A stretch of DNA of 48,211 nt, taken from contig BFEA01000039.1 in assembly GCA_003427395.1 (NCBI GenBank), positions 1,575,774 through 1,623,984 on the forward strand, given 5' to 3'. Below are positions 9,408 to 29,204 of the stretch, piece after piece. The notes under the pieces are model-generated. The model was not told the origin of the DNA and ran no database searches. It saw only the letters and a program-made list of their open reading frames with translations. Position numbers and translations under genes: made by a program. Source of the stretch: Chara braunii. Lineage: Eukaryota > Plantae > Charophyceae. Every line of letters begins with the position of its first letter. The first letter of the stretch is position 1.

Positions 9408-9650
9408 TCAGTCCAAAACAATGGGATGTGAAACACTCGTTCCGGCCTCAGCTGTACACCTCGCTCCTGTGGCTGGGAAGTCCGTCTGAGTCCCTACGGA
9501 CCTAGTCAACAAACGTCGCCTAATCCTCCTCCCGATTGGGTGTCGCCTGTACCGTGCACGTCGATCCCAAGGGACTGTGCTCGAACTCTCAGTGTCAGAA
9601 GTAGCCTCCCTCGCCCATCGGGGCCAAAGCTCCAGATCGACCGTGACCAT
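9408..9650 (-). CDS. LTR-internal 80-aa ORF with Arg-rich patch and RSVGTQTD motif (3' LTR copy)
   Basis: Strong start context actATGg; intact in both LTRs; 4 of the 6 inter-LTR differences are synonymous. Confidence 0.4.
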   Translation of the reverse strand: MVTVDLELWPRWAREATSDTESSSTVPWDRRARYRRHPIGRRIRRRLLTRSVGTQTDFPATGARCTAEAGTSVSHPIVLD

Positions 9651-9659
9651 AGTTCGGGT

Positions 9660-9825
9660 GTACCCCTTCGGAAAGCCACTCCACGAAAGTCCCTCTTCGG
9701 AAAACCTGCGTCCTGAAAGTACCGCTCGATAAGCCCCCTTCGGACGTACCCCTTCGGAAAGCCCACTTCGCGAAAGTACCCCTTCGGAAAGCCTGCTTCA
9801 CGAAAGTACCCGCTCGAGAAGCCCC
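9660..9825. repeat. ~15-bp-period (30-bp higher-order) tandem array in the LTR, running into the N block; copy at 25035-25200
   Basis: gtaccccttcggaaa / gcccacttcgcgaaa / gtaccccttcggaaa / gcctgcttcacgaaa. Confidence 0.85.
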
Positions 9826-10625
9826 NNNNNNNNNNNNNNNNNNNNNNNNNNNNNNNNNNNNNNNNNNNNNNNNNNNNNNNNNNNNNNNNNNNNNNNNNNN
9901 NNNNNNNNNNNNNNNNNNNNNNNNNNNNNNNNNNNNNNNNNNNNNNNNNNNNNNNNNNNNNNNNNNNNNNNNNNNNNNNNNNNNNNNNNNNNNNNNNNNN
10001 NNNNNNNNNNNNNNNNNNNNNNNNNNNNNNNNNNNNNNNNNNNNNNNNNNNNNNNNNNNNNNNNNNNNNNNNNNNNNNNNNNNNNNNNNNNNNNNNNNNN
10101 NNNNNNNNNNNNNNNNNNNNNNNNNNNNNNNNNNNNNNNNNNNNNNNNNNNNNNNNNNNNNNNNNNNNNNNNNNNNNNNNNNNNNNNNNNNNNNNNNNNN
10201 NNNNNNNNNNNNNNNNNNNNNNNNNNNNNNNNNNNNNNNNNNNNNNNNNNNNNNNNNNNNNNNNNNNNNNNNNNNNNNNNNNNNNNNNNNNNNNNNNNNN
10301 NNNNNNNNNNNNNNNNNNNNNNNNNNNNNNNNNNNNNNNNNNNNNNNNNNNNNNNNNNNNNNNNNNNNNNNNNNNNNNNNNNNNNNNNNNNNNNNNNNNN
10401 NNNNNNNNNNNNNNNNNNNNNNNNNNNNNNNNNNNNNNNNNNNNNNNNNNNNNNNNNNNNNNNNNNNNNNNNNNNNNNNNNNNNNNNNNNNNNNNNNNNN
10501 NNNNNNNNNNNNNNNNNNNNNNNNNNNNNNNNNNNNNNNNNNNNNNNNNNNNNNNNNNNNNNNNNNNNNNNNNNNNNNNNNNNNNNNNNNNNNNNNNNNN
10601 NNNNNNNNNNNNNNNNNNNNNNNNN
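9826..10625. other. 800-N gap or mask inside the 3' LTR
   Basis: Unreadable; starts 631 nt from the + strand LTR start. Confidence 0.99.
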
Positions 10626-11204
10626 GACTCAGTCTGGTGTCCCAATCGGTGCCCAACAGCTCAGTTCGATCCCGGGTCCCAATCTGCATCCGAGAGGTCT
10701 GCTCAATCCGCTGTCCCAACCTGCGTCCAAGTGCCCGGTCCGGCTCGGTATCCGAATCCGTGCCCAAAAGTCCCGCTTTACTTGATGAGCCACGTCCGAC
10801 CAAGAGGGCAGTTCATTCCGGCGATCCGAAGGCATGCCCAAAAGTGCCGCCTTGAGTGATACTCGGGTGCCACAGATCGCCTGTACCTGGTCTGTGTCTG
10901 ACGCCCGATTCACAGTGCCCCAGCCGAGCGCTAACATGTGCGCTGGCGCGAACTGGCTCACGTGCCCGCCTACCCTTTGGATCCCCCTGCTGTCCCTGAT
11001 GTGCAGCGCGTAAGAAAGCACCACGGGCGCACGGCACCTTACCTGCTCCGACTAGGAGTGCGCTGGTGCGTGCGCGGCTTCCTGCCCGTCCTGGCCCATC
11101 CCACGCAAGTGCTCGCAGGTGCGCACGATTGCCCTCACATGAGCGCACGCATGCGTGGCAGCTCCGCAACTCATCCCCCCTTGGCGCGGGTGCGCGCAGA
11201 TGCT

Positions 11205-11660
11205 CAGTGTGTGTGTGTGTGTGAGTGGTGACGCGCTGGCGATCCACCTACGCGCGCGTCATAGCGCACTCGCACGCCCCCCCCCTTCGCTGTCAGCTTG
11301 TGCAGGCACACCGGTGCGCGAGAATGCACACGTGTGTGTACGTGGATGTGCGCGCGTGTGCACGCGGGTCCACGGAAGTGTTCGCGAGGGTGCGCGCGGG
11401 TCCACGGAAGTGTCCCCGAGGGAGCGCGCTGATGTGCACAGGTATGCGCGCGTGTGCGTGGGAGTGTGCGTGCGTGTGCACGTGGATGTGCACGTGTGTG
11501 CGCGTGGGTCCGCGGAAGTGTTCGCGAGGGTGCGCGCGGGTCCGCTGAAGTGTCCCCGAGGGAGCGTGCTGATGTGCACAGGTATGCGCGCCTATGCGTG
11601 CGGGTGCGAGGAAGTGTGCGCGCGTGTGCGCTCGGGCGCGCGCAGGTCTCCGCGCGCATG
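11205..11660. repeat. GC-rich LTR segment: (TG)n, alternating purine-pyrimidine tracts and a 140-bp tandem duplication with 30-bp subunits; copy at ~26582-27065
   Basis: ggaagtgttcgcgagg at 11374 and 11514; the (TG)n run is longer in the 5' LTR. Confidence 0.8.
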
Positions 11661-12655
11661 TGCGGGTGCTCCCCTTTACTCTGTCCGGCCGAGCGCACGT
11701 GCGCCAGGGTGCGCGAGCGCCTGAGTGGGTGCATGCGAATCTCGAGCGCCCATCTCCCGGTGCGTCTGGCTCGCCTGTCCTTACTTGCGCTTCTCTCCGC
11801 GCGTGTCCCCATCCCGTTCGTCTGTATCATGCGCCTGAAGTCTCTGACCGCCTGTCTCCAGCGTGCGAGAAGTCTCCGTGCTCCTCTTCGTGTGTGGCCG
11901 CCTGACTCCGCATGTCCCGAACGCCCCATGCCTGGGCCCGGTTGGGCTTAAGTACTCCGCCGGGCCCTTCCCACAAGTGCGTGTGTGTGTGCCACGGCCT
12001 CCAGTGCACCGAGGCTGCGGAACACTTGCAGCGCCTCGGTACCGTGCCTGCGCCCGGGCCTGATTGGGCCCCCGAAAGGCCACTGGCGCACAAGGCCTTC
12101 TCGCAGGGAACTGGGCCCTCTGCAGCGGCCTGGTACCATGGCTAGTCCCGAGCCTGTCTCAGGCCTGCCGGGGCCTAGGCGGTCCCCACGCAGCCGTGGT
12201 GTCGTTCTTAGGGAAAAATCCAAACTGCCCCGTAAGTGAAAATTGGACCCCTCATTCAATTGGCCTAGCCAGGCCCCGCGTCCTGGCGGGACCGCCCCTT
12301 CGGAGGAACACTCAACCGGCCCAATGGGTCTCTTGCTCGCAGTGCCGGCCTGCGTCATGGTTAGTGAGTCGCGGCCGGATAAAGTAGGCTCCTTGATCGC
12401 TGTGTCGGCCAGCCTCACGGTCGGTGTGTCCCGGTAACGTGAAATAACGTCGAGCATGGTCACCGGCGCCCCATTCTTCGCCGTGTCGTCCCACCGCATG
12501 GTCGGTAATTGTTGGTAACCGTGTCGGTCCCAGTGTTGGCCTGCCTCATAGTTGATGAGGCCCGGCCAGGTAGACTACCGTTGAGCGAGGGTCTCGTCGT
12601 GTGCCCTCGGAAAGGAAGTAAAGGGCGGCGTAGTATTGGAGCCGCCCAACAGCAG

Positions 12656-13028: not shown

Positions 13029-16000
13029 CTAGAAGTTTGTGTTGTGTTTTTTTTTAAGATTGGAGGATTCTGGTACTTGAGAAGTGATTTGTGCGGCCGG
13101 CTTTAGTGCATGCCGATTGGAGGATTCCCCTACTTCGGAGGTGGTTGGTGTTGTGGGTTCTTCTAAGGACTCATCCTTCTTTTTACCTTTTTTTGGGTGC
13201 GTATGGGCGTGATTTTTCTGCCTGATTTTTTCCGTGTGTGGAATATTTTCTGTTCGGTCTTTAAATACTTTAAGACGGGCGTCAGACACCGGTTCCTTCC
13301 ATCTTGTGCTGTCTAATTCCTCTATTAAGTAGGCTCCGCCTTCTAGTCTTTTGACCACTCTACAGGGCCCCATCCATCTGTTTGCTAGCTTCCCTGTCCA
13401 TGTTCTCTCTAATGAGGAGTTATAGAGGAAGACGAGGCTCCCTGTTGGTATCCCTTCTTGCCTGACGCGAAGGTTCCTATCCCATCTTTCTTTCTCTTTT
13501 CCTCTCTGGATCTTTAATTTGTCTATGGTGTCTAGGATGTTATCCTGAAGAGTTTCGGCTATTTGTTTGATTCTTGCGGCCAACAACTGTTCTCTAGTGG
13601 AGATCTCTTCCCAGTCAATCGTTTGCCAAGAGTCGATATGAAATTCTATAGGTAAGGGACAATGGCATCCAAACCATAATGTATAAGGCGGATATCCTGT
13701 AGTTGAGCGAACCGTAATGTTATCTGCCCAGACGGCGAATTTGAAATATTTTGGCCAGTTATTCTCCTTTCCTTCGCACCATTTAGTGAGCGCGTTGACT
13801 AGAGACTGGTGCCCTCTTTCTACAGGAGCGTTAGTTTGGGGATGATATGTTGTGGATAGCGATACTCGTATTCCCGCTTTTTGGAGCAATTCTTGGACTT
13901 TCTTAGCCATAAACTCTGATCCCCTATCCATGACAATTTTGTCAATGCAGCCGTAGCGAGTGATATATTCAGTCAAATAGCCACTAACTGCTTTACCTGT
14001 TTTTTGACGTAGTGGTCATGCCTCCACGAATCCAGTCAAGTCGTCTCTAATGTCCATGATGTAATTCATTCCTCCTTCTCCCTTGGGCATCTTAACTAGG
14101 TCTAAGTGCACTTTCTGGCCTATTGTTGTGGGATAGGAAGGAAATAAGGGTTCTTTATATTTAACTACCGCTCTCTTCTGGCATTCCACGCATGTCAGAC
14201 AGTATGATTCTACGTCCTTATATAGGTCGTCCCAGCAGTAGAGGTTCCTAATTTTTTCAAAAGTTCCTTTTATTCCTCTATGTCCTCTGACGATGCCATC
14301 GTGAAGTTCCACTATTATATCTCGACGCTCGTCCTCATCACAGACGACTCTCATTGGCATTCCATTTTTAGGTGGTCTTTTAAAGAAGTGTCCTGCCTTG
14401 AGGCAATATTGTTGAGCTTCCTTCCTAAGCTTGTCATCTAATTCGATTTCCCCAATAAGATAACACCCTATCTTATGATATTTGCCAATGTATAGATTTT
14501 CAAGAAACAAGGAAGTTCCTCCTGCAACGGACTCTATTTTTAATGAGTTTAAGTCCATTTGTAAAAATTTGTCAATACCACTAGGCGACCCTAGATCTCC
14601 CTCTTCTAGAGGGATTCGCGAGAGACCATCAACAACTGAGTTCTTAGCTCCGGATATTCGCTCTACTAGGTAGTCAAACATCCTTATATGCATGAGTCAT
14701 CTGGTGACCGTTGGATCTGTTAATGAGAAGTCTTTTTGTAAGACAGCTGCCATCGTCGTCGGATCGACCCGCAGTACGAACCTTCGTCCGTAAATATAAT
14801 GTCGGAAAATATTTAAACAATGTAAGACTCCTATAACTTCTTTCTTAAATTGTGAGTAGTTCCTTTCGGTGGCGTTTAAGGTTTTACTCTCGAATCTGAG
14901 AGACCTTTCATTACCGGCTTGATCCTTTTGAGTCACGACTCCACCAACAGAGGCAAGTCCCGCATCCGTACATACGACGAATGGGCGGTTTTCCTCGTCT
15001 TCGAAGTAAGGTACTCCAAGGACTTGACCTCCTTCCTTAAACTCATCTTTTAACGTTCTTACTGTATCCTCTTGTTCACTCGTCCATTGTCATTCTACTC
15101 CCTTGCGCAAGAGCTTTCGTAGGGGTTCGGCTTTTGCAGCATAGCCTTTTATGAAATTCCTCTTGAATCCGACCACTCCTAAAAACTGACGTATGTCATT
15201 AATATGTCTGAGGGGAGTTGGCCATTTCATAAGTTTTTCTAACTTTGCCGGATCTGGGCGTCTGCCATCCTTGTCGCAGATGTAACATAATATCTTTATA
15301 GAAGATACTGCCCATCTGTTTTTTGTTCCACTGACCGTAAGGTTTGCATCCTCTAACTTCACTAGTACTTTCTTGATATCCTCTGCGTCGGTGGCTATGA
15401 ATTTCCTCAGTCTCGGTCTTACCTCTGTCTCATCTTTATCGTATAGTCTTTTGATCGGAAAGTCATCTAGGAAGACCTCTACCAGATTTGGTATGAGTTC
15501 GCCGAGAACGGCAACCATGACTCTCTGAAAGACTGCAACACCGTTAGTCCACCCCATAGATACCACCGTCATTTGAACTAAGCCTAACGGTGTGTGCAAC
15601 TCAGTTAGATGTCGGTCTCTGTAGTCTAACGGTATCTCATCATATCCCGAAAAAAAGTCGCAGACTAAGTAAATTGAACGTCCTGCTGAGACTTCAGATA
15701 GGAGATCCGCGTTTGGGATGGACCCAACGTCCCTCACTGTGACCTTATTTGTCTTCTGCAAGTCTTGTATCCATCGTAGTTTGCCGTTTGATTTCCCTAT
15801 GAAGAACCAACGATTCACGTAGGCGCTCTCACAAGGTTCTGCTACAAATGTCCTTATCTTCTCCTTGTGGAAGTCTACTATCATCTCCTTTTTCTTTTGT
15901 GCACACTTCCATCCTGCATCGTTCCATGGAGTGTGAGGGACCGTATAGATTCTTGCAGGTTTAACATATCGTGGATCTATTCGCCCTTTTTCTGCGTCAC

Positions 16001-16286
16001 AAAAGGCCTTGTCGCATGATCTTAATGTTTCTATTACGAGTTCTTTCTCCTTTTTCGTTATGTTTCCGTCGCCTATATCCATTTTCTTTAACCTGTCTTC
16101 AGTGATTCTCTGCCCTTCAGTGGCCTTTCGTTCCCGGATCATCTGAGTAATTTCTTCTTCAGTGATCCCTATTTCCCCGGTCCTATCACGGATGACCGCG
16201 GATGGCTTGACTTTTTGGGCTACAGTTTTGTATTTTTTTCCCCCGCCGTGTGAGGGAATTCCTCCAAAAAAGAAAGGTTTATACAT
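13029..16286 (-). pseudogene. pol: pol: reverse transcriptase, RNase H and integrase in one frame with 3 premature TGA stops
   Basis: RT: DFFSGYDEI, MGWTNGVAVFQ, VFLDD. RNase H: VVCTDA, KKEVIG, RVDP, VVDGLSR. Integrase: HDGIVRGH...CVEC, HLD, MDRGSEF, PVERGH and a GPY/F-like WMGPCRV; no chromodomain. ORFs starting 16286, 14936, 14693 and 13976 share one frame. Confidence 0.95.
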
Positions 16287-17293
16287 CCACCGAATTCCTC
16301 GTTGTCAGCCTCTTTCTCATAGACTGTTCCGTCTACCATATACTTAGTTTCGAGGTCCTCAACGTCAATTGTTTTTCCTCTCACTTTATGCGGTCCTAGT
16401 GTAAGGTCTTCAGATATCATTTGGCAACTTCTTGTGTTCAGTCGTCCTTTATTTTGCAATGAAATTTTGTGACGGTTGTCAAATTCGTTCACGGTCTTCA
16501 AGGTAAGTCTGCTACCTTGAGGTCCGTCTATGGTAACCGTCTGACTTCCGTCCCGTTTATTTTCGGTGGTGGCGTTGACCCGTGTCAGCCATGTTTTTCC
16601 AAGAATTATTTCTGACGAACAGTTCTCAACTGTAAAGACGGGCACAGTGACCTCAACTCCAGCAATCACGATCTTGGCTTTGTGGCATACCCCGAGCGCA
16701 TGTTGCTTGAGTTTGTTAGCGGATATCATGGTCATAGCGACACTCCTGTCTACCTCTAAGCCAAGGTTTCTGACCACCTTGTCCTCACAAACGGTAGACT
16801 CGGAGCCGTTGTCGACTATAGCCTCCATCCCTATGTCATTGACTGTGACGTTGAGCTTTGCACTGACAAGGACGTAAAAGTAGTTGCTTCCGCCTTCGCT
16901 GGTTTGTACTCGTTGGTCTCCTTCGGTTAGTGCCGTTAGGACTGAGGTTTTCACCTCCTCCTTCTGTTGTCCAAAAGTTGTCTCTTGTAGCGGTACTTTA
17001 GTTTTCTTCATCATGCCTATTAATTCATCCCTCGCCGGGCCACAGCCTGCTATGAATTCCTTGAGGGTGATAGGGATTGGCATATCTATGGCCCTTCTTA
17101 AAGGTTTTCGTAAATCGATTTCATCTAGCGAGCTTTTAAGGTGAAACTTCTTGGCTGCTCGTTTTCTAGGGGATTGTGGTGACTTTGGCGGTCTGTCATA
17201 GGTTGATCTTGATCCTCTTTCTTTGTATTGCTCGCCGACCTCGCCGATGCCTTGGGTGCATACGTAAACTTCTGCTGTTTTACGTCTCTTCAA
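16220..17293 (-). pseudogene. Gag-pol linker and aspartic protease
   Basis: AIVDNGSES catalytic motif and ILGKTWL; frame-shifted relative to both gag and RT. Confidence 0.85.
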
Positions 17294-18863
17294 ACTTAAT
17301 GGATGAAATTCTTATGCTTGGGTTTTCTATTTGTTCGTCGAAATCATCCTCGAAGGTTACTCGGGAGAGCTTTGCTGGCATATGATCCTGAGATCGCTTG
17401 CCCTTTGCTTCATTCATCCTTCTCCTGCGGATATCCACATCAATCTTCATCGAGGGCAAGAAGGGTACCGGTTTGCCTTCTTTAGCCCAAATGACGTATT
17501 TTCGATCGTCGAGTTCAATGATGCCCTCTTTTAGTGCGTCTAACATTGCTTGACAATCTCTTTTGCGGTGGTCTTCATCTCCGCAGTATATACATGCTTT
17601 ATCATTCCATGTTCGCTTTGGGCTAGGGTCGGTTTTGTCGCGCGTGGTCCGGACAAGGGTTTCCTCCTTTGTCTGGTTATTACTTTGCAATCTCTCTACT
17701 ACCGCCTTTAGTACTTTTATTTGTCTTGTCATCTCCTCTTCTCGTCTGTCTGGTCTTTTTGCTTCTATCTCATCTTTTGGCTTCCACCTGTTATCCTTTG
17801 TATTTGACCACTTGGAGGTTCCCCATTCCACGTCGTTTCTTTTCCAGTCACTCCTGCTTCTTTTTCTCCATTCGCCCTCGTTTTTTATTGTGTCCCCTCT
17901 TCTAGGTGAGCTCGCGTAGGTGTCCATTCCTTCAGTTCTGGGTCTCCTATCCTCGAATTGCGATTTTTCTCCTCCTTTTTCTGTAGTTACGCCTTTTCCT
18001 AGGTTGTCAAGAACCCTCGAGAGGTGTGTTTTCGCGCTTTGGCCTTCGGTGTCATGGGTTAAGACTTTGACTTGGCTGAACGTGACCTTAGAGGGGAGGT
18101 CCCTCATAATCTTGTCTCGCTTTTCTCGAGACAGAAATCCTAGGAATATCCCGCACCTTTTTATTTCACCCATAAATCCACCTTCTACTAGAGGGTTCGA
18201 AGCCTTCTCATATCTCCTTGCGAACGCTACTAGATTCTCGTCCTCCTGTTTTTTCATTTCTTTGAGATGTTCTATTGAATAGGATGTTTCATCCCATGCG
18301 AAGATTCTTGTAATCCTTTCTCTGAATATTAGTCAATGCCAACTGTCCGGAATGACTTCTCTTACTTCGCGATCCATCTTGGGGGCTGTGTGGTGGAGTA
18401 GATTTATAATCATCTCTTGATCGCTCCATTTTGCTCTCATCCCCAGTACCTCCCAGTCGTCTAAGAATTCTGAAACATTCTTCCCTATGAAGATTGTTTG
18501 GATTCCGGACAGTGCCGGTAATTGGAAGGTTTGTGCTCCTAGGAAGGGGGATATGTAGGAGTCTGTTGCGTATGCCATTCTGTAAGGTTGGCTCGTGGTT
18601 TCCCTATATGGTTCCCTTGTACCAGGATCCGAGAATCGGGCTACTCTATTCCTGTTTAAAACGTTTTTCCTCCACCCTTCACTTTTGGAAGTGCGTTCCT
18701 CGAGTTCTGTGGCTGTAATTTCTACCTCTTTTAGGGTCTTCCTCAATTTTTAGGCGTCCTTTGTGACATCAGTTGTCATTTTCCTAATTGGAGTGCTCGT
18801 CCTTGATTCTTGTGTTTTGACTTCGCCGTCTATCGAAGATAGATAGACTCCTTCCGCATCCAT
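17280..18863 (-). pseudogene. gag: Gag (capsid region plus CCHC zinc knuckle), with premature stops
   Basis: ATG 18863 is in frame with ORFs 18333-18746 (FIGKNVSEFLDDWE) and 17280-18257 (CIYCGDEDHRKRDC = CX2CX4HX4C). Confidence 0.85.
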
Positions 18864-18872
18864 ATTTTTCCC

Positions 18873-19382
18873 TCACTCTTCCAGAAGTTGATCCAAGGCG
18901 ACTTTAACTCTTTCCGTCGATTCTTCTAGTAGTTCTTGCAATGTGTTGAAGTCCTCGTCTTTTCCTTCAGCTTTGACGACTAAGGCGGTAGCTAAAACGG
19001 TTTGTAGGTAGCGTGAGTTGGCCTCCAACGTATTTAAGGATATCCCATCAACTATTACGTTGGCGAGTTCTGCTAGAGCTCGAGCGTCCTCTCTTAATTT
19101 TTCTACAGATGTGGTTATCGTCTCTTGCCAGGTGCGTGGGATTGTTTGTCCACTAGGGTTGACAGTAAGGATTTGTATTTTTACTAGAAAGAGCTCTCCT
19201 GCAGCTTTCCAGACGGTACACTTCCTGACTTCTATTACTATTTTTGTGGCGCACTCGGTTTCCTCTTCTTGGTTTAATTGTTCATTATGTACTGCTTCCA
19301 CTAGGACTCGTACTAAGGACCCTTCTCTTTCTGCTCTGCCTGAGATACTAAATTTTTATTTTCTAGGTTCGACATTAGTCAT
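18873..19382 (-). pseudogene. Extra ORF immediately upstream of gag (~169 aa, one internal TAA)
   Basis: ATG 7 nt after the previous stop; ends TGA 9 nt before the gag ATG, in the same frame. Confidence 0.55.
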
Positions 19383-19389
19383 TCCTTTG

Positions 19390-19698
19390 TTAGTTAGTTT
19401 CTTCTTGGTCTTGCTTCAGGAGTCTCGCAATGAAATCATTTCGCCATCCTATAATGTTATCTCTTTCCTCTCTATAGAATATAACAAGACGTTCGATGCA
19501 TTTTTCCAGTCTATTTAAGTCGGCTTCGTCCGTAGAGCCGCGTCATTCGTGGTATTTTGCTAGCGACTCTTCGACCTTTCTCTCAATTGGGTTTAAGTAT
19601 ACTTTTAGGATGGCATCAATTTTTGGATCTCTTCCCCTTACACATGTGTTCGTGCTTCTTGAATTGTCTCTTCCTTCTCTATCTCGCACTTCATCCAT
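19390..19698 (-). pseudogene. Extra ORF (~102 aa, one internal TGA; helical-looking)
   Basis: Manual translation MDEVRD...IDAILKVYLNPIERKVEESLAKYHE*RGS...CIERLVIFYREERDNIIGWRNDFIARLLKQDQEETN*. Confidence 0.5.
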
Positions 19699-19913
19699 CC
19701 CTCAGTCCAAATCATCACACTGTAGGCTATGTGATTCTCTGTTTTAACTTGTGGTAGTGCCCTTGGTCTTTCACGCTCTATAGCTTCTTGTGCCAATCTT
19801 CGGCAATCTAATGTGTTTAATGCTCTAGAGGTTCGGATCCTACTAATGGAAGTTATAGTCCCTGCAAAGGATACCCGATTCACTTCCTCTTCATCAGTTA
19901 CCGTTCCTGGCAT
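19638..19913 (-). CDS. Extra ORF (91 aa, unknown)
   Basis: ATG overlaps the preceding ORF by 20 nt; part of the packed array. Confidence 0.45.
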   Translation of the reverse strand: MPGTVTDEEEVNRVSFAGTITSISRIRTSRALNTLDCRRLAQEAIERERPRALPQVKTENHIAYSVMIWTEGWMKCEIEKEETIQEARTHV

Positions 19914-20355
19914 TATTGAGTTGGTCTTGCATCCTCTTGACCTTCCATACGAGGTCTATTACGGCTGACCATTCATTGTTAGCGAGCGTAAGCCCTTCAA
20001 CTAACGGCGACGGTATTCCAATAAACGGCCTAACATAGGTACTCCACGAGAAATTTACCCTTAATTGTTGGAGTCTTCTCTTCTCGTCATGCACTATGTT
20101 CGAGGCCCGTTGCCAACAACGACCTTTTTCGTCTTCCTTAAACCTATGTTGCGGTACGTATATTCCCACATCATACTCATCAAGGTTGATGAAGTAGTAG
20201 GTGATGACATACATACCATCAATCCCCCATCCCTGACTCTTTAGACCTTCGTATCTCACGATCTCATATGGGATCACTGCTCTCTTCGATATAGAGTTAA
20301 GGGAACGGACCAACTTCCTCGACTTCCCCTCCTCTAACCTCCTACATCTCCTCAT
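19894..20355 (-). CDS. Extra ORF, repeat-domain copy 3 (153 aa)
   Basis: IPYEIV...YVIT...EYDVGIYVP...CWQRA...EKRRL...WST...IPSP. Confidence 0.65.
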   Translation of the reverse strand: MRRCRRLEEGKSRKLVRSLNSISKRAVIPYEIVRYEGLKSQGWGIDGMYVITYYFINLDEYDVGIYVPQHRFKEDEKGRCWQRASNIVHDEKRRLQQLRVNFSWSTYVRPFIGIPSPLVEGLTLANNEWSAVIDLVWKVKRMQDQLNNARNGN

Positions 20356-20436
20356 CCTTGGTCAACTCCCTTAGCATGGCTCCTAATCCTGCTCTTGATC
20401 TTGAAAGTTTTCTCTCTCTTACTAGTCTCCTTTGCA

Positions 20437-20640
20437 CTAATCCTTCACTGCCCTCATGATTCCTATTAATCTTCCTCTGTCATCTCTTATCTCGTACTCA
20501 CCTTCTACTCCAAACAGGTCTGTGTCAAGGTAGAGTTCCCCTTCTTGATCTCGTAGGCAAGAGGTTCCTCTCTTAATCTCTATCAACCCTGTTTCATCAG
20601 ATCGAACTCTTCTACAGATTGTCGTGCCTAGAGTACGCAA
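20437..20640 (-). pseudogene. Extra ORF fragment, second linker copy (DTDLFG)
   Basis: In frame with 20731-21255 across three stops; DTDLFGVE resembles DIDLFGFE; RRLVRER follows in an adjacent frame. Confidence 0.45.
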
Positions 20641-20730
20641 GTCCTCTTAGGTCCATTCCGTCAAAAGTCTGAGCAGCTCCTGGGACCTCCACGCTGTCTT
20701 AGTTCACTTGTTATATCCCCCCCAGGCGGG

Positions 20731-21546
20731 CTATTCTCGTTCCCTCTGGCCATTCGGTTTATGGTGCCGGTTTATGAAATCAATTATTAGACCTCGGTCG
20801 ATGCCTATCAACACTCCGTAAGGAATCCACGGTCTAGGCAAGTCTTCAAAAACCCTGATTTCGGTGCTCCAAGCGACTTCTTTCTTTAAGGAAAGGAGCC
20901 TATCCTTCTCGACCTCTACCACTTCTCTCGCTCTTTGCCAACAACATCCGTACACTAAATCTTCCGACCTCTCCGTTAGTAAGTAAATGCCTACGTCTCT
21001 TACCTCAGTCCCTAGGAAGCGCGCGGTCATAACATAGAGGCGGCTTAGTTCCCATGCGTTGTCGACCATCTCATAGGCCTCCACCTCATACGGAAACTCC
21101 TCCCTTCTTCCTAGGGTACTCAAGGATGCACACACCGCATCAAACTTCTCTTGCGGCGGTCGGTTCCCAGCGATGATCTTGTTATCCCACTCCTCAAGTT
21201 TCTCTGCAGACTTCGTATGCCTTACTCGTTCATGGCCCAACATTTTTTTAGCCACGCCCGCCTAACACAACCGGACTCGTTCCCTGACCAGACGACAGTA
21301 TTTTCTCCCAGAGGTCCCTAGTCTTTCCACCTTCAGTAGATATCTGATCTCGGTTTGGTTGGTAATTACCCTCAAAGTCGACTCCCTCATACGATTCAAA
21401 TAAGGTTGTATGAGTTCAAGCTCTTCAAACCCAAAAAGATCTATATCAGGAATTCGGAGGGTGGCCTTAACTTTTACCATTCTCTCTTCCACGATAGCCC
21501 TGAAGGAGAATTGTTCCCTAAGACCCGATATCCTTACCGACCCCAA
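20731..21546 (-). pseudogene. Extra ORF: linker (DIDLFG...RLVRER) plus repeat-domain copy 2
   Basis: ORFs 21262-21546 and 20731-21255 are in frame across one TAG; FPYEVE...DVGIY...CWQRA...WST...LPRP. Confidence 0.65.
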
Positions 21547-21953
21547 CTCCTTGCTCTGAGCGCCATATTAATTAAAGGCTCCCAGTTCTTGCCGTCAGTA
21601 AAACTATCAGGTAGAATAGGTTTTGGAACCTCATAGAATAGGACCGGTGATGAGTCACTGATTACTTTCTCCCCTCTCCTTTCTAATTCCTTCCTTTCCT
21701 GGTTGATGACGGTTTTAATCCAGTTTCTAAGCGACTCTCGATCAGTTCCTCTCTCTCTCAATAGAGGTATATAGGGCCTAATGTCGTACTCCCCTGTATC
21801 AAGGTGTTTTACCACAAGGACGTAGGCTTTCCCAGGAGCGTGGCGTTCCTCCAACGATATACAACTTTCTATTTTGTAAGGAAACGCCCCCCCGCTAGTA
21901 ATAGGGACTAAGGCGTCTAGGGCCGGTGTGACCCTAGGGCAATAACCTGACAT
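21534..21953 (-). CDS. Extra ORF, repeat-domain copy 1 (139 aa)
   Basis: FPYKIE...YVLV...EYDIRPYIP...ERKEL...FYEVPKP aligns with copies 2 and 3. Confidence 0.65.
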   Translation of the reverse strand: MSGYCPRVTPALDALVPITSGGAFPYKIESCISLEERHAPGKAYVLVVKHLDTGEYDIRPYIPLLRERGTDRESLRNWIKTVINQERKELERRGEKVISDSSPVLFYEVPKPILPDSFTDGKNWEPLINMALRARSWGR

Positions 21954-21999
21954 TTTCCATTCTGTATCCTCTTATCGTTACCCTTCTGCGTCACCGAGG

Positions 22000-22470
22000 T
22001 CACTCTAGGCCCATCCAGATCCCCAGTCCTAGCCATTGTCCCTCGACATAATCTTCTATTTCACTGGCGCTCCTGAAGTACCCCTCTCTTTCCTCAGGGA
22101 AATCTCCGACGTCTTCCCACTCTTCACGAATGTCTTCCCTTAATCGTTCCCACTCGGCTAGATCCCAATTTTCTTCCCCGTACTCCACGTCTTCGTCGTT
22201 TACGGCCTATGTCCCTTCGAAGTATGTCCGGAGTTCGAAGAACCCAATGAGTGACCCTTCCCTAACCGACGAGTCGTATCCTGGAGTTCCGTATAACTCG
22301 TCTATACCAGCTAGGTGGCTCGACGGCTACCTCAGGGCTCTATCCAAAGCAGTCCAGAACTCGGCCGGTTGATCAAACCTCGGCGCTTCTCTGAGACCTC
22401 TAGGTGAGATAGCTCTAATTAGCTCCACCAATTCTAAAGCCGACTCCCCGAACTTGGACCCTTCAAAGCT
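22000..22470 (-). pseudogene. Decayed extra coding segment with an acidic C-terminus
   Basis: Reads FGESALELVELIRAI...PAEFWTALDRALR*...FEGT*AVNDEDVEYGEENWDLAEWE...; TAG stops are consistent with C>T decay. Confidence 0.5.
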
Positions 22471-22544
22471 TGTTCGGGTTGGGGCAAGAACCCTTCTCTA
22501 GCCAGTCGAAGCGAGACCACTACTGACCTATATTCCCTGTCATA

Positions 22545-22985
22545 TCAGCGTTCCTTCCCCCTTAGCTTGTCGACCACTTCCTGCAGTATACGTCGCGCTG
22601 TTACCTCGTCTGCCCAAGTATGAGAGTCGAGACTCGGAATTACCCCTAAGACCGGATCCCACCGACTTCGTTCTACAACTTGGAAAACTATGTCCGCTAG
22701 ATCGGAAGACTGATAGTAGAGGAAACCTCTGACCGCCAATTCTTGGGATTCTGCTATTAGCCTGCCTCTCCTGTCGAACTCACACCCTACCTGGGGCGCG
22801 ACCAGCAACCAGACCCTCGGCCTCAACAGGATAGATCTCCACTCCTTATCTACTTTATCCAAATATCCTCGCCTGACAGCTTGCCCGGGTAAGGTAAATT
22901 TCACCCAATCTTCTCCAATGAACTCGGTTTCCCTATAGTCGAAGTGGCAAAGCTCAACTGGGTGCTCTATCTCGTCGTGAGGCAT
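22545..22985 (-). CDS. Extra ORF-b (146 aa, unknown; may have continued toward 22000)
   Basis: ATG immediately after the ORF-a stop; the frame stays open for ~36 codons past the TGA (YDREYRSVVV...). Confidence 0.65.
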   Translation of the reverse strand: MPHDEIEHPVELCHFDYRETEFIGEDWVKFTLPGQAVRRGYLDKVDKEWRSILLRPRVWLLVAPQVGCEFDRRGRLIAESQELAVRGFLYYQSSDLADIVFQVVERSRWDPVLGVIPSLDSHTWADEVTARRILQEVVDKLRGKER

Positions 22986-23693
22986 TTAGTCGTCCGCGGA
23001 GCTCCCATCTAAAATCCTGCCCCTGTCTATCTCCCCACTTGTCTCTGCTCTCCTTACCTCGTCTCTGACCCTGAACACGACTCTGCGCAACTGTCTACGT
23101 GTGGGAATCGCTCGGTCTAGATAGTAAGTAAGTAACCAGGCTAGCTCGACGGCAGTTATCATAAACCGTGTCGCCCTCTGCACTACAGCGAGTAGCCTCT
23201 GATGTCTCTCCTCATTGCCAAGGACTACTCCTGTGAGGAATCTAGGAACGATAACCGCTCTGACAAACGTAGCTCTAGGGAGCTCCCAGTCGTACGCAAA
23301 ATGCACCGTGTAGAAGGCTACCGAGTCGGCTCCGCTCCTCTCCACAAACTCACTGAACACTCTCGCACCGAATCTACGTGCTAATGATGTCAGGCATAAG
23401 AGAGTGTGACAACGACGGGCAGTCTTTATCACTAGATACCTCCACTCCTCCTCTGAGAGATATAGTCTAACGTTCACTTTTTCGCGAAGAGGTTCGCTAG
23501 CCCTGTCCCTTCTAACACATACTCTAGGCTCCGCCTCAATTCTCACCCACAGGAAGACGCCCTCGCGTATGACTAGACCTCCCTGTTCAGACGGCCTATA
23601 CTTGCTCGATCCTTCCAAAGGAAGACTAATGACGTCACAGAAGCCGCTTCGTTCAACGAAATGTACTTGAGACTCCGATTCGATGTAAACCAT
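22986..23693 (-). CDS. Extra ORF-a (235 aa, unknown function), first ORF after the leader
   Basis: Intact ATG-TAA ORF; preceded by an acceptor-like tttatttttgcttag; its stop abuts the next start (TAAATG). Confidence 0.7.
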   Translation of the reverse strand: MVYIESESQVHFVERSGFCDVISLPLEGSSKYRPSEQGGLVIREGVFLWVRIEAEPRVCVRRDRASEPLREKVNVRLYLSEEEWRYLVIKTARRCHTLLCLTSLARRFGARVFSEFVERSGADSVAFYTVHFAYDWELPRATFVRAVIVPRFLTGVVLGNEERHQRLLAVVQRATRFMITAVELAWLLTYYLDRAIPTRRQLRRVVFRVRDEVRRAETSGEIDRGRILDGSSADD

Positions 23694-24550
23694 TCCTAAG
23701 CAAAAATAAAAGACGGTTCTCTCTCAGTATGTCACTCCCTGTGCTACTCTCAGACTGTTGAGCTCACAGACCCCCACGACAGGCCTCCTCTGATCACCCC
23801 TGTATCCCTTCAAGACGTCAACAGGCCTAGAAGAGAACCGCCCTCTAGCGTATCTCTCCCTACCCTCGTGTCAAGAAGGAGGTTGGATCAATGTGCCATC
23901 GTCGCTGGCCTACCTTCCCTGTCGTGACCTGAGCACGAGCCGACCAACTCATGTGCTCTAGGGTGGACCGAAGTCACACGCTAATAGGGAGGTGGTGTCT
24001 CACTCGTGCATCCTCACTCTTATCCATGCCTCTACTCGACCCACCTCAGGGATGGTCTCACATCCCGACTCGTGATCCCCCCTGCTATCCATCAGAATCG
24101 ACTAGCCTGTCTAGTCCCCGCCCAACTCCTTGCAAATTCGGGGCGCTTCTCCCCTCCCCTTCAGTCCCTTCAAGTATTCCCCTGCTCACGATTCTCTCTC
24201 TTAGATTCAATATCTGGGTGGACTGACCAAAGGGTACGGAAAATCAGAATGATATCCCTCGATCACAAGGAAGGCAACAGGAATGAAATGCATGAAAGAT
24301 GAGAAGAAAAGCAGGAATCAACGAAACCACGAAATGCAGAAATCACAATCTCACCATTGAACGTCGATCATAGGTCGATGGGGGTGTCGTCTGCCCGCTC
24401 GTGCCCGTACTGTCCAATGTCTCACTTGGGCATTCAGACCACTGGCCAACTGCTTAGCCTCCTCCGTCTTCGCTGTCCCAGTCACATCCCTGTCCTGCTC
24501 CTCTCACATCCCCGCGGTTACAGGCGGACCGAAGTCCCGAGAGGCAGCCT

Positions 24551-24568
24551 TCCCCGGCAACGGCGCCA
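24551..24568 (-). promoter_or_regulatory. Primer-binding site complementary to the 3' end of tRNA-Asp
   Basis: Minus strand TGGCGCCGTTGCCGGGGA (18 nt) just inside the 5' LTR; matches plant tRNA-Asp ...TCCCCGGCAACGGCGCCA, the primer also used by Athila-type elements. Confidence 0.9.
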
Positions 24569-24782
24569 CTGTCGACCGGTAGAAGGGGTCTGCCGACACG
24601 CCGTCCGAACCCTATGCCTCGCGCCACGTCTGTCACCCGCGGAAGGGTCGGTCGGGGCTCCTGTAACCTGCACAAAACTTGTCAGTCCACATCAACAAAT
24701 ACAAGTACCGTAGACGACCGTGACCAATGCGAGAAGGAACTCATGAAACACTGTCTGGCATAAATAAAAGAAGTAGCTGCAT

Positions 24783-25025
24783 TCAGTCCAAAACAATGGG
24801 ATGTGAAACACTCGTTCCGGCCTCAGCCGTACACCTCGCTCCTCTGTCTGGGAAGTCCGTCTGAGTCCCTACGGACCTAGTCAACAAACGTCGCCTAATC
24901 CTCCTCCCGATTGGGTGTCGCCTATACCGTGCACGTCGATCCCAAGGGACTGTGCTCGAACTCTCAGTGTCGGAAGTAGCCTCCCTCGCCCATCGGGGCC
25001 AAAGCTCCAGATCCACCGTGACCAT
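24783..25025 (-). CDS. LTR-internal 80-aa ORF (5' LTR copy)
   Basis: 78/80 aa identical to 9408-9650. Confidence 0.4.
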   Translation of the reverse strand: MVTVDLELWPRWAREATSDTESSSTVPWDRRARYRRHPIGRRIRRRLLTRSVGTQTDFPDRGARCTAEAGTSVSHPIVLD

Positions 25026-25200
25026 AGTTCGGGTGTACCCCTTCGGAAAGCTACTCCACGAAAGTCCCTCTTCGGAAAGCCTGCTTCCTGAAAGTACCGC
25101 TCGAGAAGCCCCCTTCGGACGTACCCCTTCGGAAAGCCCACTTCGCGAAAGTACCCCTTCGGAAAGCCTGCTTCACGAAAGTACCCGCTCGAGAAGCCCC

Positions 25201-26000
25201 NNNNNNNNNNNNNNNNNNNNNNNNNNNNNNNNNNNNNNNNNNNNNNNNNNNNNNNNNNNNNNNNNNNNNNNNNNNNNNNNNNNNNNNNNNNNNNNNNNNN
25301 NNNNNNNNNNNNNNNNNNNNNNNNNNNNNNNNNNNNNNNNNNNNNNNNNNNNNNNNNNNNNNNNNNNNNNNNNNNNNNNNNNNNNNNNNNNNNNNNNNNN
25401 NNNNNNNNNNNNNNNNNNNNNNNNNNNNNNNNNNNNNNNNNNNNNNNNNNNNNNNNNNNNNNNNNNNNNNNNNNNNNNNNNNNNNNNNNNNNNNNNNNNN
25501 NNNNNNNNNNNNNNNNNNNNNNNNNNNNNNNNNNNNNNNNNNNNNNNNNNNNNNNNNNNNNNNNNNNNNNNNNNNNNNNNNNNNNNNNNNNNNNNNNNNN
25601 NNNNNNNNNNNNNNNNNNNNNNNNNNNNNNNNNNNNNNNNNNNNNNNNNNNNNNNNNNNNNNNNNNNNNNNNNNNNNNNNNNNNNNNNNNNNNNNNNNNN
25701 NNNNNNNNNNNNNNNNNNNNNNNNNNNNNNNNNNNNNNNNNNNNNNNNNNNNNNNNNNNNNNNNNNNNNNNNNNNNNNNNNNNNNNNNNNNNNNNNNNNN
25801 NNNNNNNNNNNNNNNNNNNNNNNNNNNNNNNNNNNNNNNNNNNNNNNNNNNNNNNNNNNNNNNNNNNNNNNNNNNNNNNNNNNNNNNNNNNNNNNNNNNN
25901 NNNNNNNNNNNNNNNNNNNNNNNNNNNNNNNNNNNNNNNNNNNNNNNNNNNNNNNNNNNNNNNNNNNNNNNNNNNNNNNNNNNNNNNNNNNNNNNNNNNN
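25201..26000. other. 800-N gap or mask inside the 5' LTR
   Basis: Same length, offset and flanks as 9826-10625. Confidence 0.99.
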
Positions 26001-26578
26001 GACTCAGTCTGGTGTCCCAATCGGTGCCCAACAGCTCAGTTCGATCCCGGGTCCCAATCTGCATCCGAGAGGTCTTCTCAATCCGCTGTCCCAACCAGCG
26101 TCCAAGTGCCCGGTCCGGCTCGGTATCCCAATCCGTGCCCAAAAGTCCCACTTCACTTGATGAGCCACGTCCAGCCAAGAGGGCAGTTCATTCCGGCGAT
26201 CCGAAGGCGTGCCCAAAAGTGTCGCCTTGAGTGATACTCGGGTGCCACAGATCGCCCGTACCTGGTCTGTGTCTGATGCCCGATTCAAAATGCCCCAGCC
26301 AAGCGCTAACGTGTGCGCTGGCGCGAACTGGCTCAGGTGCCCGCCTACCCTTTGGATCCCCCTGCTGTCCCTGATGTGCAGCGCGTAAGAAAGCGCCCCG
26401 GGCGCACGGCACCTTACCTGCTCCGACTAGGAGTGCGCTGGTGCGTGCGCGGCTTCCTGCCCGTCCTGGCCCATCCCACACAAGTGCTCGCAGGTGCCCA
26501 CGATTGCCCTCACATGAGCGCACGCATGCGTGGTAGCTCCGCAACTCATCCCCCCTTGGCGCGGGTGCGCGCAGATAC

Positions 26579-26628
<50 letters not shown>

Positions 26629-29204
26629 GTGACGCGTTGGCGATCCACCTACGCGCGCGTCATAGTGCACTCGCACGCCCCCCCCCTTCGCTGTCAGCGT
26701 GTGCAGGCACACCGGTGCGCGAGAATGTGCGTGTGTGTGTACGTGGATCTGCGCACATGTGCACGCGGGTCCACGGAAGTGTTTGCGAGGGTGCGCGCGG
26801 GTCCGTGGAAGTGTCCCCGAGAGAGCGCGCTGATGTGCACAGGTATGCGCGCGTGTGCGCGGGAGTGTGCGTGCGTGTGCACGTGGATGTGCACGTGTGT
26901 GCGCGCGGGTCCGCGGAAGTGTTCGCGAGGGTGCGCGCGGGTCCACGAAAGTGTCCCCGAGGGAGCGCGCTGATGTGCACAGGTATGCGCGCGTGTGCAT
27001 GCGGGTGTGCGGAAGTGTGCGCGTGTGTGCGCTCGGGCGCGCGCAGGTCTCCGCGCGCGTGTGTGGGTGCTCCCCTCTACTCCGTCCAGCGGAGCTCACG
27101 TGCGCCAGGGTGCGCGAGCTCCTGCGTGGGTGCATGCGAATCTCGAGCGCCCGTCTCCCGGCGCGTCTTGCTCGCCTGTCCTTACTTGCGCTTCTCTCCG
27201 CGCGTGTCCCCGTCCCGTTCGTCTGTATCGTGCGCATGAAGTCTCTGACCGCCTGTCTCCAGCGTGCGAGAAGTCCCCGTGCTCCTCTTCGTGCGTGGCC
27301 GAAAGTCCTGTGCGCCTGACTCCGCATGTCCCGAATGCCCCATGCCTGGGCCCGGTTGGGCTTAAGTACTCCGCCGGGCCCTTCCCACAAGTGCGTGTGT
27401 GTGTGCCACGGCCTCCGGTGCACCGAGGCTGCGGAACACTTGCAGCGCCTCGGTACCGTGCCTGCGCCTGGGCCTGATTGGGCCTCCGAAAGGCCACTGG
27501 CGGACAAGGCCTTCTCGTAGGGAACTGGGCCCTCTGCAGCGGCCTGGTACCATGGCTAGTCCCGAGCCTGTCTCAGGCCTGCCTGGGCCTAGGCGGTCCC
27601 CACGCAGCCGTGGTGTCGTTCTTAGGGAAAAATCCAGACGGCCCCGTTAGTGAAAATTGGACCCCTCATTCAATTGGCCTAGCCGGGCCCCGCGTCCTGG
27701 CGGGACCGCCCCTTCGGAGGAACACTCAACCGGCCCAACGGGTCTCTTGCTCGCAGTGCCGGCCTGCGTCATGGTTAGTGAGTCGCGGCCGGATAAAGTA
27801 GGCTCCTTGATCGCAGTGTCGGCCAGCTTCACGATCGGTGTGTCCCGGTAACGTGAAATAACGTCGAGCATGGTCACCGCCGCCCCGTTCTTCGTCGTGT
27901 CGTCCCCCACCGCTTGGTCGGTAATTGTTGGTAACCGTGTCGGTCCCAGTGTTGGCCCGCCTCATAGTTGATGAGGCCCAGCCAGGTAGAATACCATTGA
28001 GCGAGGGTCTTGTCGCGTGCCCTCGGAAAGGAAGTAAAGGGCGGCGTAGTATTGGAGCCGCCGGACACCGGAACGCGGCGTGGGGGACGTAGCCGCTCTC
28101 CACACATCGATCCGATCATGCAGACCGTGGCTACCAAAAATGCAGCAAAAGAAAGAGAAGAGGGGCGGAAAGGACGAAGAACAAGAAGAAGAATACAATT
28201 AGAATGGCGCCAATCCAAAATTACAGTTACACACCCGATTAAAGGCACCGACTAATCAGAATTTCGTTGCAGCCGCATAAAGAAGTGCGTAAGCAAAAGG
28301 CGTCGCGCGGCAAAAGAAAGTCCTAATTACAAAATTCCTAAATTCCTATCTAATGCGAAAAAGCAAAAAGCACAAGTGCCGGAGAGAAAGTCCAAAATTC
28401 CGAGAGCCATCGGGGCTCGATAAAATTCGAAAAGAAAATTTCAAAAAGAACGAAGCAAAATTCCTGCGCGATGTCCGCGCCTAAAAAGTTCCGAAACCGA
28501 AACAAAAGAAACGACGTCAACATTTATTAATTGCGGGCTTGTCGGTGCGCCAGTCATCCACCCGACCAATCAATAGCCCGTCTCGAGACACACCCAGCTC
28601 CGAACTCAGCCATCCGAAAAGAATCGACGGAAAAGACGAAGAAGCGAGGGTACTGATGCAATTTCCCATCCATCCCAATCTGCCGTAATTGGCCCAACCT
28701 TCCCAGCTTAGGACCCTTCATTGCTATTGCGCAGAAAGTCGCGCGCTACATTAAGTGGTTCGTCACAGGCCTCCTGTAATGTTGGAGACATATAACCTGC
28801 ACGAACGGAGGGGAACCTCACAAATCTGCCCGTATGGAAACTTCTTTCCATGTTTTTCAGTTCTCTGGGAGGAGCTATGGGTTCTGTTTTTTTGTGTTTT
28901 TTTAAACTTTTATAATTTTTTTTTGCCTGTTAGTTAAACCACTAGTACATCCAGGCCTCGTTTTGTCGAGGCGGGAAAGGACTGCAGACCAAGCTTTGCC
29001 GAAGAGCCAGCGTAACTTTTGCTTTTGGTTTTGCCTGGCATCACCAGCCTTTTTGGTCCGGTGGCGCCCAGCCTCCGAAGAACGTGGTATAGGTTATGTT
29101 GCGCACTACAGGCTGCAAGACCGTGCCCTAGCTGTGTGTCAGTAGAAGGGCAATAGAAAACGGAAATTGTCTTTTGCTTCGCTGCTAACATTGAGTGAGA
29201 TCAA

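What the first reader, a model, noticed from the sequence alone, without database searches (positions are those of the whole stretch)
18873..23693. ~4.8-kb operon-like cluster of unknown sense ORFs between the PBS and gag
Seen: roughly 7-10 reading frames on the gag strand with almost no spacers. Junctions include TAAATG at 22986/22985, a 20-nt overlap at 19894-19913, a 61-nt overlap at 19638-19698, a 7-nt gap at 19383-19389, and a 9-nt in-frame gap before the gag ATG. None looks like env (no clear TM segment or signal peptide) or like gag/pol. Known: Ogre/Tat elements carry about one extra 5' ORF, and caulimoviruses translate packed ORFs by reinitiation. Inference: a complex, virus-like Gypsy with a polycistronic accessory cassette needing reinitiation, read-through or splicing to reach gag. 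The exact ORF count is uncertain because this copy is decayed.
Basis: partly seen in the sequence, partly recalled or inferred. Interest (0 to 1): 0.85.

Follow-up and report, generated by a model that had tools for sequence, protein, structure and literature searches.

The report
Algal retrotransposon carrying ten extra genes
A 19-kb jumping gene, likely from a stonewort alga, carries about eleven small, tightly packed extra reading frames in front of its core genes, three of them copies of one unknown protein family under purifying selection, and it likely reads them from one RNA the way some plant viruses do, an arrangement we did not find described for this kind of element.

Summary
Between primer site and gag of a 19-kb Ty3/Gypsy element (host likely Chara; 17 of 18 RT hits are C. 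braunii) lie 11-12 sense frames. Six ATG-started frames of 90+ codons cover 58% of the stretch, against 1% in shuffles and none on the other strand. Sister copies cover the whole stretch as deeply as gag, so it is not a private insertion. New: ORFs D, F and H are paralogues of one family found only in Chara gene models and unnamed short contigs. A diverged sister element (L001) keeps them in the same order under purifying selection (H: dN/dS about 0.09). Several stops are private decay, including the one that makes the '7-nt gap'. Sister contigs break off at the start codon of ORF I, so the cassette looks modular. No Pfam, env-like segment or clear fold. The mechanism is inferred only: a splice acceptor 2 nt before ORF A, an AUG-poor first half and caulimovirus-like stop-start spacing point to splicing, leaky scanning and reinitiation. 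No RNA evidence was obtained. Not Ogre/Tat. The scan's notes hold no earlier record on other DNA.

The parts
24570..28068 (-). 5' LTR, about 3.5 kb, with an 800-N gap (25201-26000); starts TGT, ends ACA
   Evidence: self-alignment; K2P distance to the 3' LTR 0.032 over 631 sites and 0.049 over 2027 sites
9195..12652 (-). 3' LTR with an 800-N gap (9826-10625), preceded by a G-rich polypurine tract; element flanked by a 4-bp target duplication CCGG
24552..24568 (-). primer binding site, one base after the LTR; match to tRNA-Asp is recalled, not tested
   Evidence: sequence shown
23694..24551 (-). 860-nt leader with 12 upstream ATGs (1-30 codons) and no stable hairpin; ends in a T-rich splice-acceptor-like site (last intron base 23696)
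   Evidence: best of 1199 AG sites by an ad hoc score; folding z never below -1.01 in 11 windows
22986..23693 (-). ORF A, 235 aa, intact, no homologue found
22545..22985 (-). ORF B, 146 aa, intact, ATG directly after A's stop, no internal ATG in any frame
   Evidence: contigs about 80% alike cover 22463-22968 and then leave
22000..22497 (-). ORF C, about 165 codons, acidic; two internal stops private to this copy; start uncertain (an ATG lies 1 nt after B's stop, in another frame)
21534..21953 (-). ORF D, 139 aa, paralogue 1 of the D/F/H family
21262..21567 (-). ORF E, 101 stop-free codons, first Met at 21480, start uncertain; absent between the D-like and F-like ORFs of L001
20731..21243 (-). 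ORF F, 170 aa, paralogue 2
20437..20703 (-). ORF G, about 88 codons, one private internal stop, start uncertain; absent from L001
19894..20355 (-). ORF H, 153 aa, paralogue 3; dN/dS about 0.09 against L001
19638..19913 (-). ORF I, 91 aa; sister contigs stop matching at its ATG and near its stop
   Evidence: table 7
19375..19698 (-). ORF J/K, one frame of about 107 codons with a stop at 19545-19543 that is not shown to be private; may be one or two ORFs
18873..19382 (-). ORF L, 169 codons, one private internal stop; in frame with gag; 28% identical over 83 aa to a Chara gene model that also holds an RT of this lineage
17280..18863 (-). gag, broken by two stops in this copy (one shown private), with a zinc knuckle below the Pfam cut-off
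13029..17311 (-). pol, in pieces: protease, RT, one RNase H, integrase; no chromodomain and no second RNase H

Best explanation
The stretch is a family-wide cassette of about eleven separate small reading frames that a Ty3/Gypsy retrotransposon, likely of Chara, carries in front of gag; it includes three paralogues of one unknown protein family under purifying selection, and it is likely translated from one LTR-driven polycistronic RNA. Inferred steps: (1) the leader with 12 upstream ATGs is likely spliced out to the acceptor 2 nt before ORF A; (2) ribosomes likely reach A-E partly by leaky scanning, since that half is poor in AUGs; (3) F to L and gag lie behind many AUGs, so they would need stop-start reinitiation, probably helped by a cassette protein acting like the caulimovirus transactivator, and Gag-Pol may also use an RNA of its own; (4) the proteins are most likely accessory factors that boost the element's expression or blunt host silencing, gained, duplicated and lost gene by gene. 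Odds: real family cassette of separate genes 0.9; splice plus scanning plus reinitiation as main route 0.45; counter-silencing or transactivator role 0.3.
For: Frame cover far above chance and strand-specific. Sister contigs of one sample cover all 30 of 30 bins of 17200-24560; depth 276-1929 over the cassette bins and 391-1375 over the gag bins; 3551 contigs laid in X1 across all identity bands. D/F/H paralogy: F-H 34% over 119 aa, E 6e-23; D-F E 5e-6. Seven further members among 1.84 billion representatives: 2 Chara gene models and 5 unnamed short contigs. L001 has D-like, F-like and H-like ORFs packed in the same order without E and G. H against L001: codon-position identity 0.75/0.82/0.47, pN/pS 0.28 (95% bootstrap 0.19-0.37), dN/dS about 0.09; F pN/pS 0.60; D C-terminus 0.41. 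Both in-frame junction stops (A/B, L/gag) have an ATG within 4 codons, which 20 of 270 stops in the stretch have; 0 of 5 private internal stops do. Loose ends pile up at ORF I's ATG in 4 of 4 runs. Acceptor-like site ranks 1 of 1199. Out-of-frame ATGs in A-E: 8 against 21.6 expected; internal Met 12 of 1575 codons against 42 of 1984 in gag-pol, p 0.0008. Stop-to-start distances of 0, 1, 7, 9, 18, 46, 81, -20 and -61 nt resemble CaMV's 1, 1, -19, -38 and 60 nt (PMC5902531, passages).
Against: No transcript, splice or ribosome data. The acceptor score is ad hoc and no strong donor stands out upstream (best score 7.0 against 10.1 elsewhere). Over the whole cassette out-of-frame ATGs are not depleted (47 against 50.2; F-L 39 against 28.6), and the A-E/F-L split was chosen after seeing the data. 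A UGGGA motif lies upstream of only 2 of 9 starts. Starts of C, E, G and K are unclear in this copy. Selection was testable for 3 of 11 ORFs only, with dS near saturation and codons aligned through the protein. All four DNA runs are one sample and may be the window's own source. Reinitiation through about ten ORFs is not known outside Caulimoviridae according to PMC5902531 (passages), and no TAV-like match was found.
Confidence: 0.5

Rival explanations
1. Same cassette of separate genes, but each is expressed from its own subgenomic RNA made by alternative splicing or internal promoters, as in complex retroviruses; gag likewise gets its own RNA.
For: One very strong acceptor exists before A; strong donor-like sites lie inside the cassette (23057, 21003, 20501); F-L hold many AUGs that block scanning; eukaryotic ribosomes rarely reinitiate after long ORFs (PMC10275272, passages).
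Against: The best acceptor-like site within 60 nt of the other 12 candidate starts ranks only 30 to 563 of 1199. Abutting and overlapping stop-start junctions leave no room for promoters and are not needed for splicing.
Confidence: 0.25
2. Fewer, longer products: A-B and L-Gag are fusions made by stop read-through, and other neighbours are joined by frameshifting.
For: A/B and L/gag are in frame with a single stop between them; a Chara gene model holds an L-like stretch and the lineage's RT in one predicted protein, though such models are likely chimeric.
Against: Both stops are followed at once by an ATG. No unusual structure 3' of either stop (z -0.55 and -1.62). Neighbours change between subfamilies at gene borders.
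Confidence: 0.13
3. A foreign piece (virus or other transposon) was captured by the family's ancestor and is carried along without function.
For: No homologue outside Chara-like sequences; operon-like packing is typical of viruses; GC is somewhat higher in the 5' half.
Against: Strong third-position bias between families whose synonymous sites are nearly saturated; gene-wise duplication, gain and loss; no match in viral contigs, PHROGs or viral folds.
Confidence: 0.08
4. One or two long ORFs broken up by decay in this copy.
For: The copy is decayed: six stops sit on private places.
Against: Frames switch at ATG-started borders; no indel carried by 55% or more of sister depth in 18830-19950, which spans two frame switches; stand-alone relatives of 121-161 aa exist; L001 shows separate packed ORFs.
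Confidence: 0.04

Closest known systems
Plant non-chromovirus Ty3/Gypsy with a 5' extra ORF (Ogre, TatII; also Tekay among chromoviruses)
   Same: Large element, long LTRs, extra sense coding before gag (PMC6317226 passages and supplement 3).
   Different: Ogre carries 1-2 extra ORFs (PMC6431247 passages), an archaeal RNase H, 5-bp duplications and mostly a tRNA-Arg primer. Here about 11 small ORFs, one RNase H, 4-bp duplication. That survey counted only extra ORFs of 250+ codons, so every ORF here (235 aa or less) would have been missed.
Athila, and Phygy/Selgy of moss and spikemoss
   Same: No chromodomain, no archaeal RNase H; Asp-type primer site as in Athila (recalled match); 4-bp NCGN duplication as in Phygy.
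   Different: Athila has 5-bp duplications and no 5' extra ORFs listed; Phygy and Selgy are 4-10 kb, lack extra ORFs and use Trp or Ala primers.
Caulimoviridae polycistronic translation (CaMV TAV reinitiation; RTBV and badnavirus leaky scanning)
   Same: Long leader with short upstream ORFs, accessory ORFs ahead of the core genes, stop-start distances of a few to tens of bases, AUG-poor first ORFs (PMC5902531 passages).
   Different: This element has LTRs and an integrase; no movement protein, TAV match or leader hairpin was found; about twice as many ORFs.
Stop-start coupling in SART1 and caliciviruses; bicistronic leaky scanning in green algae
   Same: Close stop-start pairs; AUG depletion before a downstream ORF (PMC10275272 passages; PMC11291117 abstract).
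   Different: Those cover two ORFs. The junction here is TAA-ATG abutting, not the shared-base UAAUG, and no regular upstream motif was seen.
Burro (planarian Gypsy) and foamy-like fish endogenous retroviruses with accessory ORFs
   Same: Size gained through accessory coding (PMC6431247 passages).
   Different: Burro packs known domains into one polyprotein and has env homology; here many small orphan ORFs and no env.

Membership tests
Ty3/Gypsy LTR retrotransposon | Two LTRs, primer site, polypurine tract, target duplication | tested here: met
Ty3/Gypsy LTR retrotransposon | Domain order protease-RT-RNase H-integrase | tested here: met
   Pfam
Tat/Ogre | Additional archaeal RNase H domain | tested here: not met
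   One RNase H only in the pol segments, with integrase following directly; defining per PMC6317226
Tat/Ogre | 5-bp duplication and tRNA-Arg primer (Ogre) | tested here: not met
   4-bp CCGG; primer identity itself is recalled
Athila | tRNA-Asp primer site | not tested
   Site shown; complementarity to tRNA-Asp is recalled, no tRNA was aligned
Athila | 5-bp duplication; extra ORF after pol, not before gag | tested here: not met
   4-bp duplication; about 360 nt between pol and the 3' LTR
Phygy | 4-bp NCGN duplication | tested here: met
   CCGG in one copy
Phygy | 7.7-10 kb, no extra ORFs | tested here: not met
   18.9 kb with about 11 extra frames
Chromovirus | Chromodomain after integrase | tested here: not met
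   No chromodomain family in the 328-aa integrase C-terminal segment
Any REXdb/GyDB lineage | RT phylogeny with labelled references | not testable with these tools
   No labelled lineage sequences could be obtained; RT hits were Chara gene models and one unnamed record
Caulimoviridae | No LTR-integrase; movement protein present | tested here: not met
   LTRs and integrase present; no movement-protein family
Caulimovirus-like translation (works-like claim) | Close stop-start spacing of consecutive ORFs | tested here: met
Caulimovirus-like translation (works-like claim) | AUG-free upstream ORFs for leaky scanning | tested here: inconclusive
   A-E depleted (post hoc split), F-L not
Caulimovirus-like translation (works-like claim) | Stable leader hairpin for ribosome shunting | tested here: inconclusive
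   No 120-nt window with z below -1.01; long-range pairing and the LTR part of the leader not tested
Caulimovirus-like translation (works-like claim) | A transactivator protein; downstream ORFs translated from one RNA | not testable with these tools
   No sequence match; only the D/F/H family was folded; needs RNA and translation data
Env-bearing retroelement | Signal peptide and TM segment | tested here: not met
   Maximum 19-residue hydropathy 1.55; no Pfam match

The most novel reading that the evidence does not exclude
A Chara lineage of LTR retrotransposons has independently evolved a caulimovirus-like polycistronic genome: about eleven accessory genes, exchanged and duplicated as modules, are read in series from one RNA with the help of an element-encoded reinitiation factor, and the D/F/H family is a new small-protein fold class in an arms race with host silencing in the algal relatives of land plants.
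Probability: 0.2. Interest if true: 0.9.

Novelty: new variant of a known kind. Interest (0 to 1): 0.66.

Why it matters
Extra ORFs in plant LTR retrotransposons are known as one or two long frames, mostly after pol. A cassette of about eleven small genes before gag, with internal duplication and gene-wise turnover, looks like the accessory region of a complex virus. It raises a testable question: how does a eukaryotic RNA deliver Gag-Pol behind some 75 upstream AUGs? If serial reinitiation is the answer, it would be such a system outside Caulimoviridae and a source of parts for multi-gene expression in plants. It also shows that surveys with a 250-codon cut-off miss such cassettes, and it supplies at least one new conserved protein family.

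Tried and rejected
No whole genome is held, and L001's record is not searchable. Homologue searches with no hit: ORF A (0 of 1915 candidates, 129-412 aa only); D/F/H by word index (0 of 1563; the full HMMER search then found 7); ESM Atlas for H and A; PHROGs, 0 of 9 proteins; PDB sequences, best E 0.49; viral contigs for D/F/H, RT, A and L; prokaryote genomes for F/H and B. Folds: two models of the D/F/H family (mean pLDDT 64.9 and 67.2; helix, three strands, helix, strand, helix). Best structural rows are gelsolin/villin domains, Z 4.7 (rmsd 3.5, 80 aligned) and Z 5.5 (rmsd 5.2, 84 aligned), below the level the tool calls meaningful; Foldseek gave nothing at E 0.001 or better in PDB or viral libraries. 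An actin-binding role and my first idea of a dsRBD- or P19-like fold are therefore unsupported, not excluded. No RNA holder was listed, and no RNA reads were laid, so expression and splicing are open. The codon positions of private differences were tallied but say nothing on selection. A contig joint skipping 19899-20436 (about ORF H) in 3 of 4 runs of one sample has a side of only 32 letters and is kept as a hint. The RTs in gene models P0021 and P0025 were not used to tie D/F/H to a lineage, since those models look chimeric. Literature: 9 searches listed no description of this family or of a many-ORF cassette before gag. The Chara braunii genome paper is not held; it or its supplements, Repbase or subscription papers may describe these elements. 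No complex prediction was run, as no binding is claimed.
Full report
Element. The window holds one LTR retrotransposon on the minus strand, 28068 to 9195 (18.9 kb). Its LTRs are about 3.5 kb, each with an 800-N gap, and differ by K2P 0.032-0.049. A 4-bp duplication CCGG flanks it. A primer site follows the 5' LTR. gag starts at 18863; protease, RT, one RNase H and integrase follow in Gypsy order. Of 18 RT relatives at E 1e-40 or better, 17 are Chara braunii gene models (46-72% identical) and one is unnamed, so the host is likely Chara. No genome was available.

Observation. ATG-started frames of 90+ codons number six (A, B, D, F, H, I) and cover 58% of 18873-23693; the other strand has none, and 0 of 300 shuffles reach that cover (mean 1%). 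With broken or start-less frames (C, E, G, J/K, L) the count is 11, or 12 if J and K are separate. None passes a Pfam cut-off or has a clear membrane segment.

Family feature, not a private insertion. Contigs from four DNA runs of one sample cover 30 of 30 bins from gag to the primer site, with summed depth 276-1929 over the cassette and 391-1375 over gag; 3551 contigs were laid in X1, spread over all identity bands. Depth is not a copy number, and the sample may be the window's source. Places where nearly all sister depth differs mark this copy's own changes. Six stops sit on such places: both internal stops of C, one in G, the one inside L, the one ending K, and the first in gag. So C, G and L are single frames in the family, and the '7-nt gap' belongs to this copy only. 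The stops ending J and L are not among the 40 of 58 rows shown for 18830-19950, although a neighbouring place with low depth is; they are probably shared, but 18 rows were cut. For the A/B stop the table showed only 40 of 1210 rows, so it is open. No indel reaches 55% of sister depth in 18830-19950, across two frame switches.

A gene family inside the cassette. A profile search of 1.84 billion representatives found 7 members: two Chara gene models and five unnamed short contigs, four of them 121-161 aa. A scan of metagenome contigs gave 1 locus from 82 pattern matches, L001, which holds the end of a D-like ORF, an F-like ORF and an H-like ORF in the same order, about 20 nt apart and without E or G. 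H against its L001 partner: 65% amino-acid identity over 133 codons, codon-position identity 0.75/0.82/0.47, pN/pS 0.28 (0.19-0.37), dN/dS about 0.09 with dS near saturation. F gives pN/pS 0.60 and 30 codons of D give 0.41. L has a 28% match over 83 aa (E 3e-7 pairwise) to a Chara gene model that also carries this lineage's RT. The other seven frames could not be tested for selection.

Modularity. Sister contigs stop matching exactly at ORF I's ATG (19913-19914, 4 of 4 runs) and, in 2 of 4 runs, near its stop (19648). Others match B and leave at 22463, or share the leader and leave at 23746. With L001 this suggests that whole ORFs are gained, lost and duplicated between subfamilies, as expected of separate genes. 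Both in-frame junction stops have an ATG within four codons, against 20 of 270 stops overall and 0 of 5 private internal stops.

What the proteins are. Two models of the family agree on helix, three strands, helix, strand, helix, at mean pLDDT 65-67. Structural searches give only weak gelsolin-like rows (Z 5.5, rmsd 5.2, 84 aligned at best) and nothing at E 0.001. A had no hit in three searches. The role I favour, accessory factors acting on the element's expression or on host silencing, is an inference from small size, lineage restriction, duplication and turnover; I give it 0.3.

How it is likely read. There are 77 ATGs between primer site and gag, 12 of them in the leader, so plain scanning cannot reach gag. 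The best acceptor-like site of 1199 in the element lies 2 nt before A's ATG, while those before the other starts rank 30-563 (ad hoc score). That favours one splice that removes the leader. A-E are poor in AUGs (8 out of frame against 21.6; B has none at all), F-L are not (39 against 28.6); this split is post hoc and the cassette as a whole is not depleted out of frame. Stop-to-start distances resemble those of CaMV, where a viral protein drives reinitiation, and badnaviruses reach a third ORF by leaky scanning (PMC5902531, passages). No leader hairpin, read-through structure or regular upstream motif was found. I therefore favour splice, leaky scanning and reinitiation (0.45) over nested subgenomic RNAs (0.25) and read-through fusions (0.13). 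None of this was observed in RNA.

Comparison and novelty. It is a Ty3/Gypsy element without chromodomain or archaeal RNase H, so not Ogre/Tat; it shares a 4-bp NCGN duplication with Phygy and probably an Asp primer with Athila but fits neither (PMC6317226, passages and supplement 3). Extra ORFs are known, mostly after pol (PMC7264820, first third of the text), and Ogre has one or two (PMC6431247, passages). PMC1142308 (passages; 2005) noted predicted acceptors at the gag start of Diaspora and no reported intron before gag at that date. The REXdb survey counted only frames of 250+ codons and would miss all of these. Nine searches of the held library listed no description of this architecture; the Chara genome paper was not available, so a brief earlier mention cannot be excluded. 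Verdict: real, a new variant of a known kind, interest 0.66; the architecture and selection on one gene family are shown, the translation mechanism and function are inferred.

Noticed in passing
window 9191-9194 and 28069-28072: 4-bp target duplication CCGG, matching the NCGN preference reported for Phygy; unusual for large plant Gypsy elements.
   Followed up: partly
window 40246-48030 (+): Decayed non-LTR (LINE-like) element: weak zinc knuckle, RT (E 1e-20) and zf-RVT segments.
   Followed up: partly
window 25038-25200 and 26608-27047 (and 9663-9825, 11207-11646): The LTR holds short tandem units of about 30 nt next to the N gap in both copies and a 140-nt repeat; the gap likely hides a longer array.
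   Followed up: no
window 17227-17311: gag and pol frames overlap by about 30 nt, and sister contigs show length differences here, so the gag-pol junction of this copy is altered.
   Followed up: no
window 8845-9142 and 35710-35997; 7443-7584 and 33950-34090: Two further dispersed repeats, 73% and 85% alike; the first abuts the element's left end, so the element may sit in an older repeat.
   Followed up: no
window 3621-3925 and 30377-30735: Short degenerate tandem arrays, units of about 60 and 50-130 nt.
   Followed up: no
proteins P0009, P0021, P0025: Chara gene models that stitch cassette ORF pieces to RT fragments; P0009 is named for a YjeF domain by a source although Pfam finds only RT, so such names mislead.
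   Followed up: partly
window 23746 and 24514: 12-21 contigs per run share the leader up to these places and then leave: other families may use the same primer region with different cassettes.
   Followed up: no
window ORFs C and E: Weak C-E likeness (33% over 51 aa, E 0.019), possibly a second paralogue pair.
   Followed up: no
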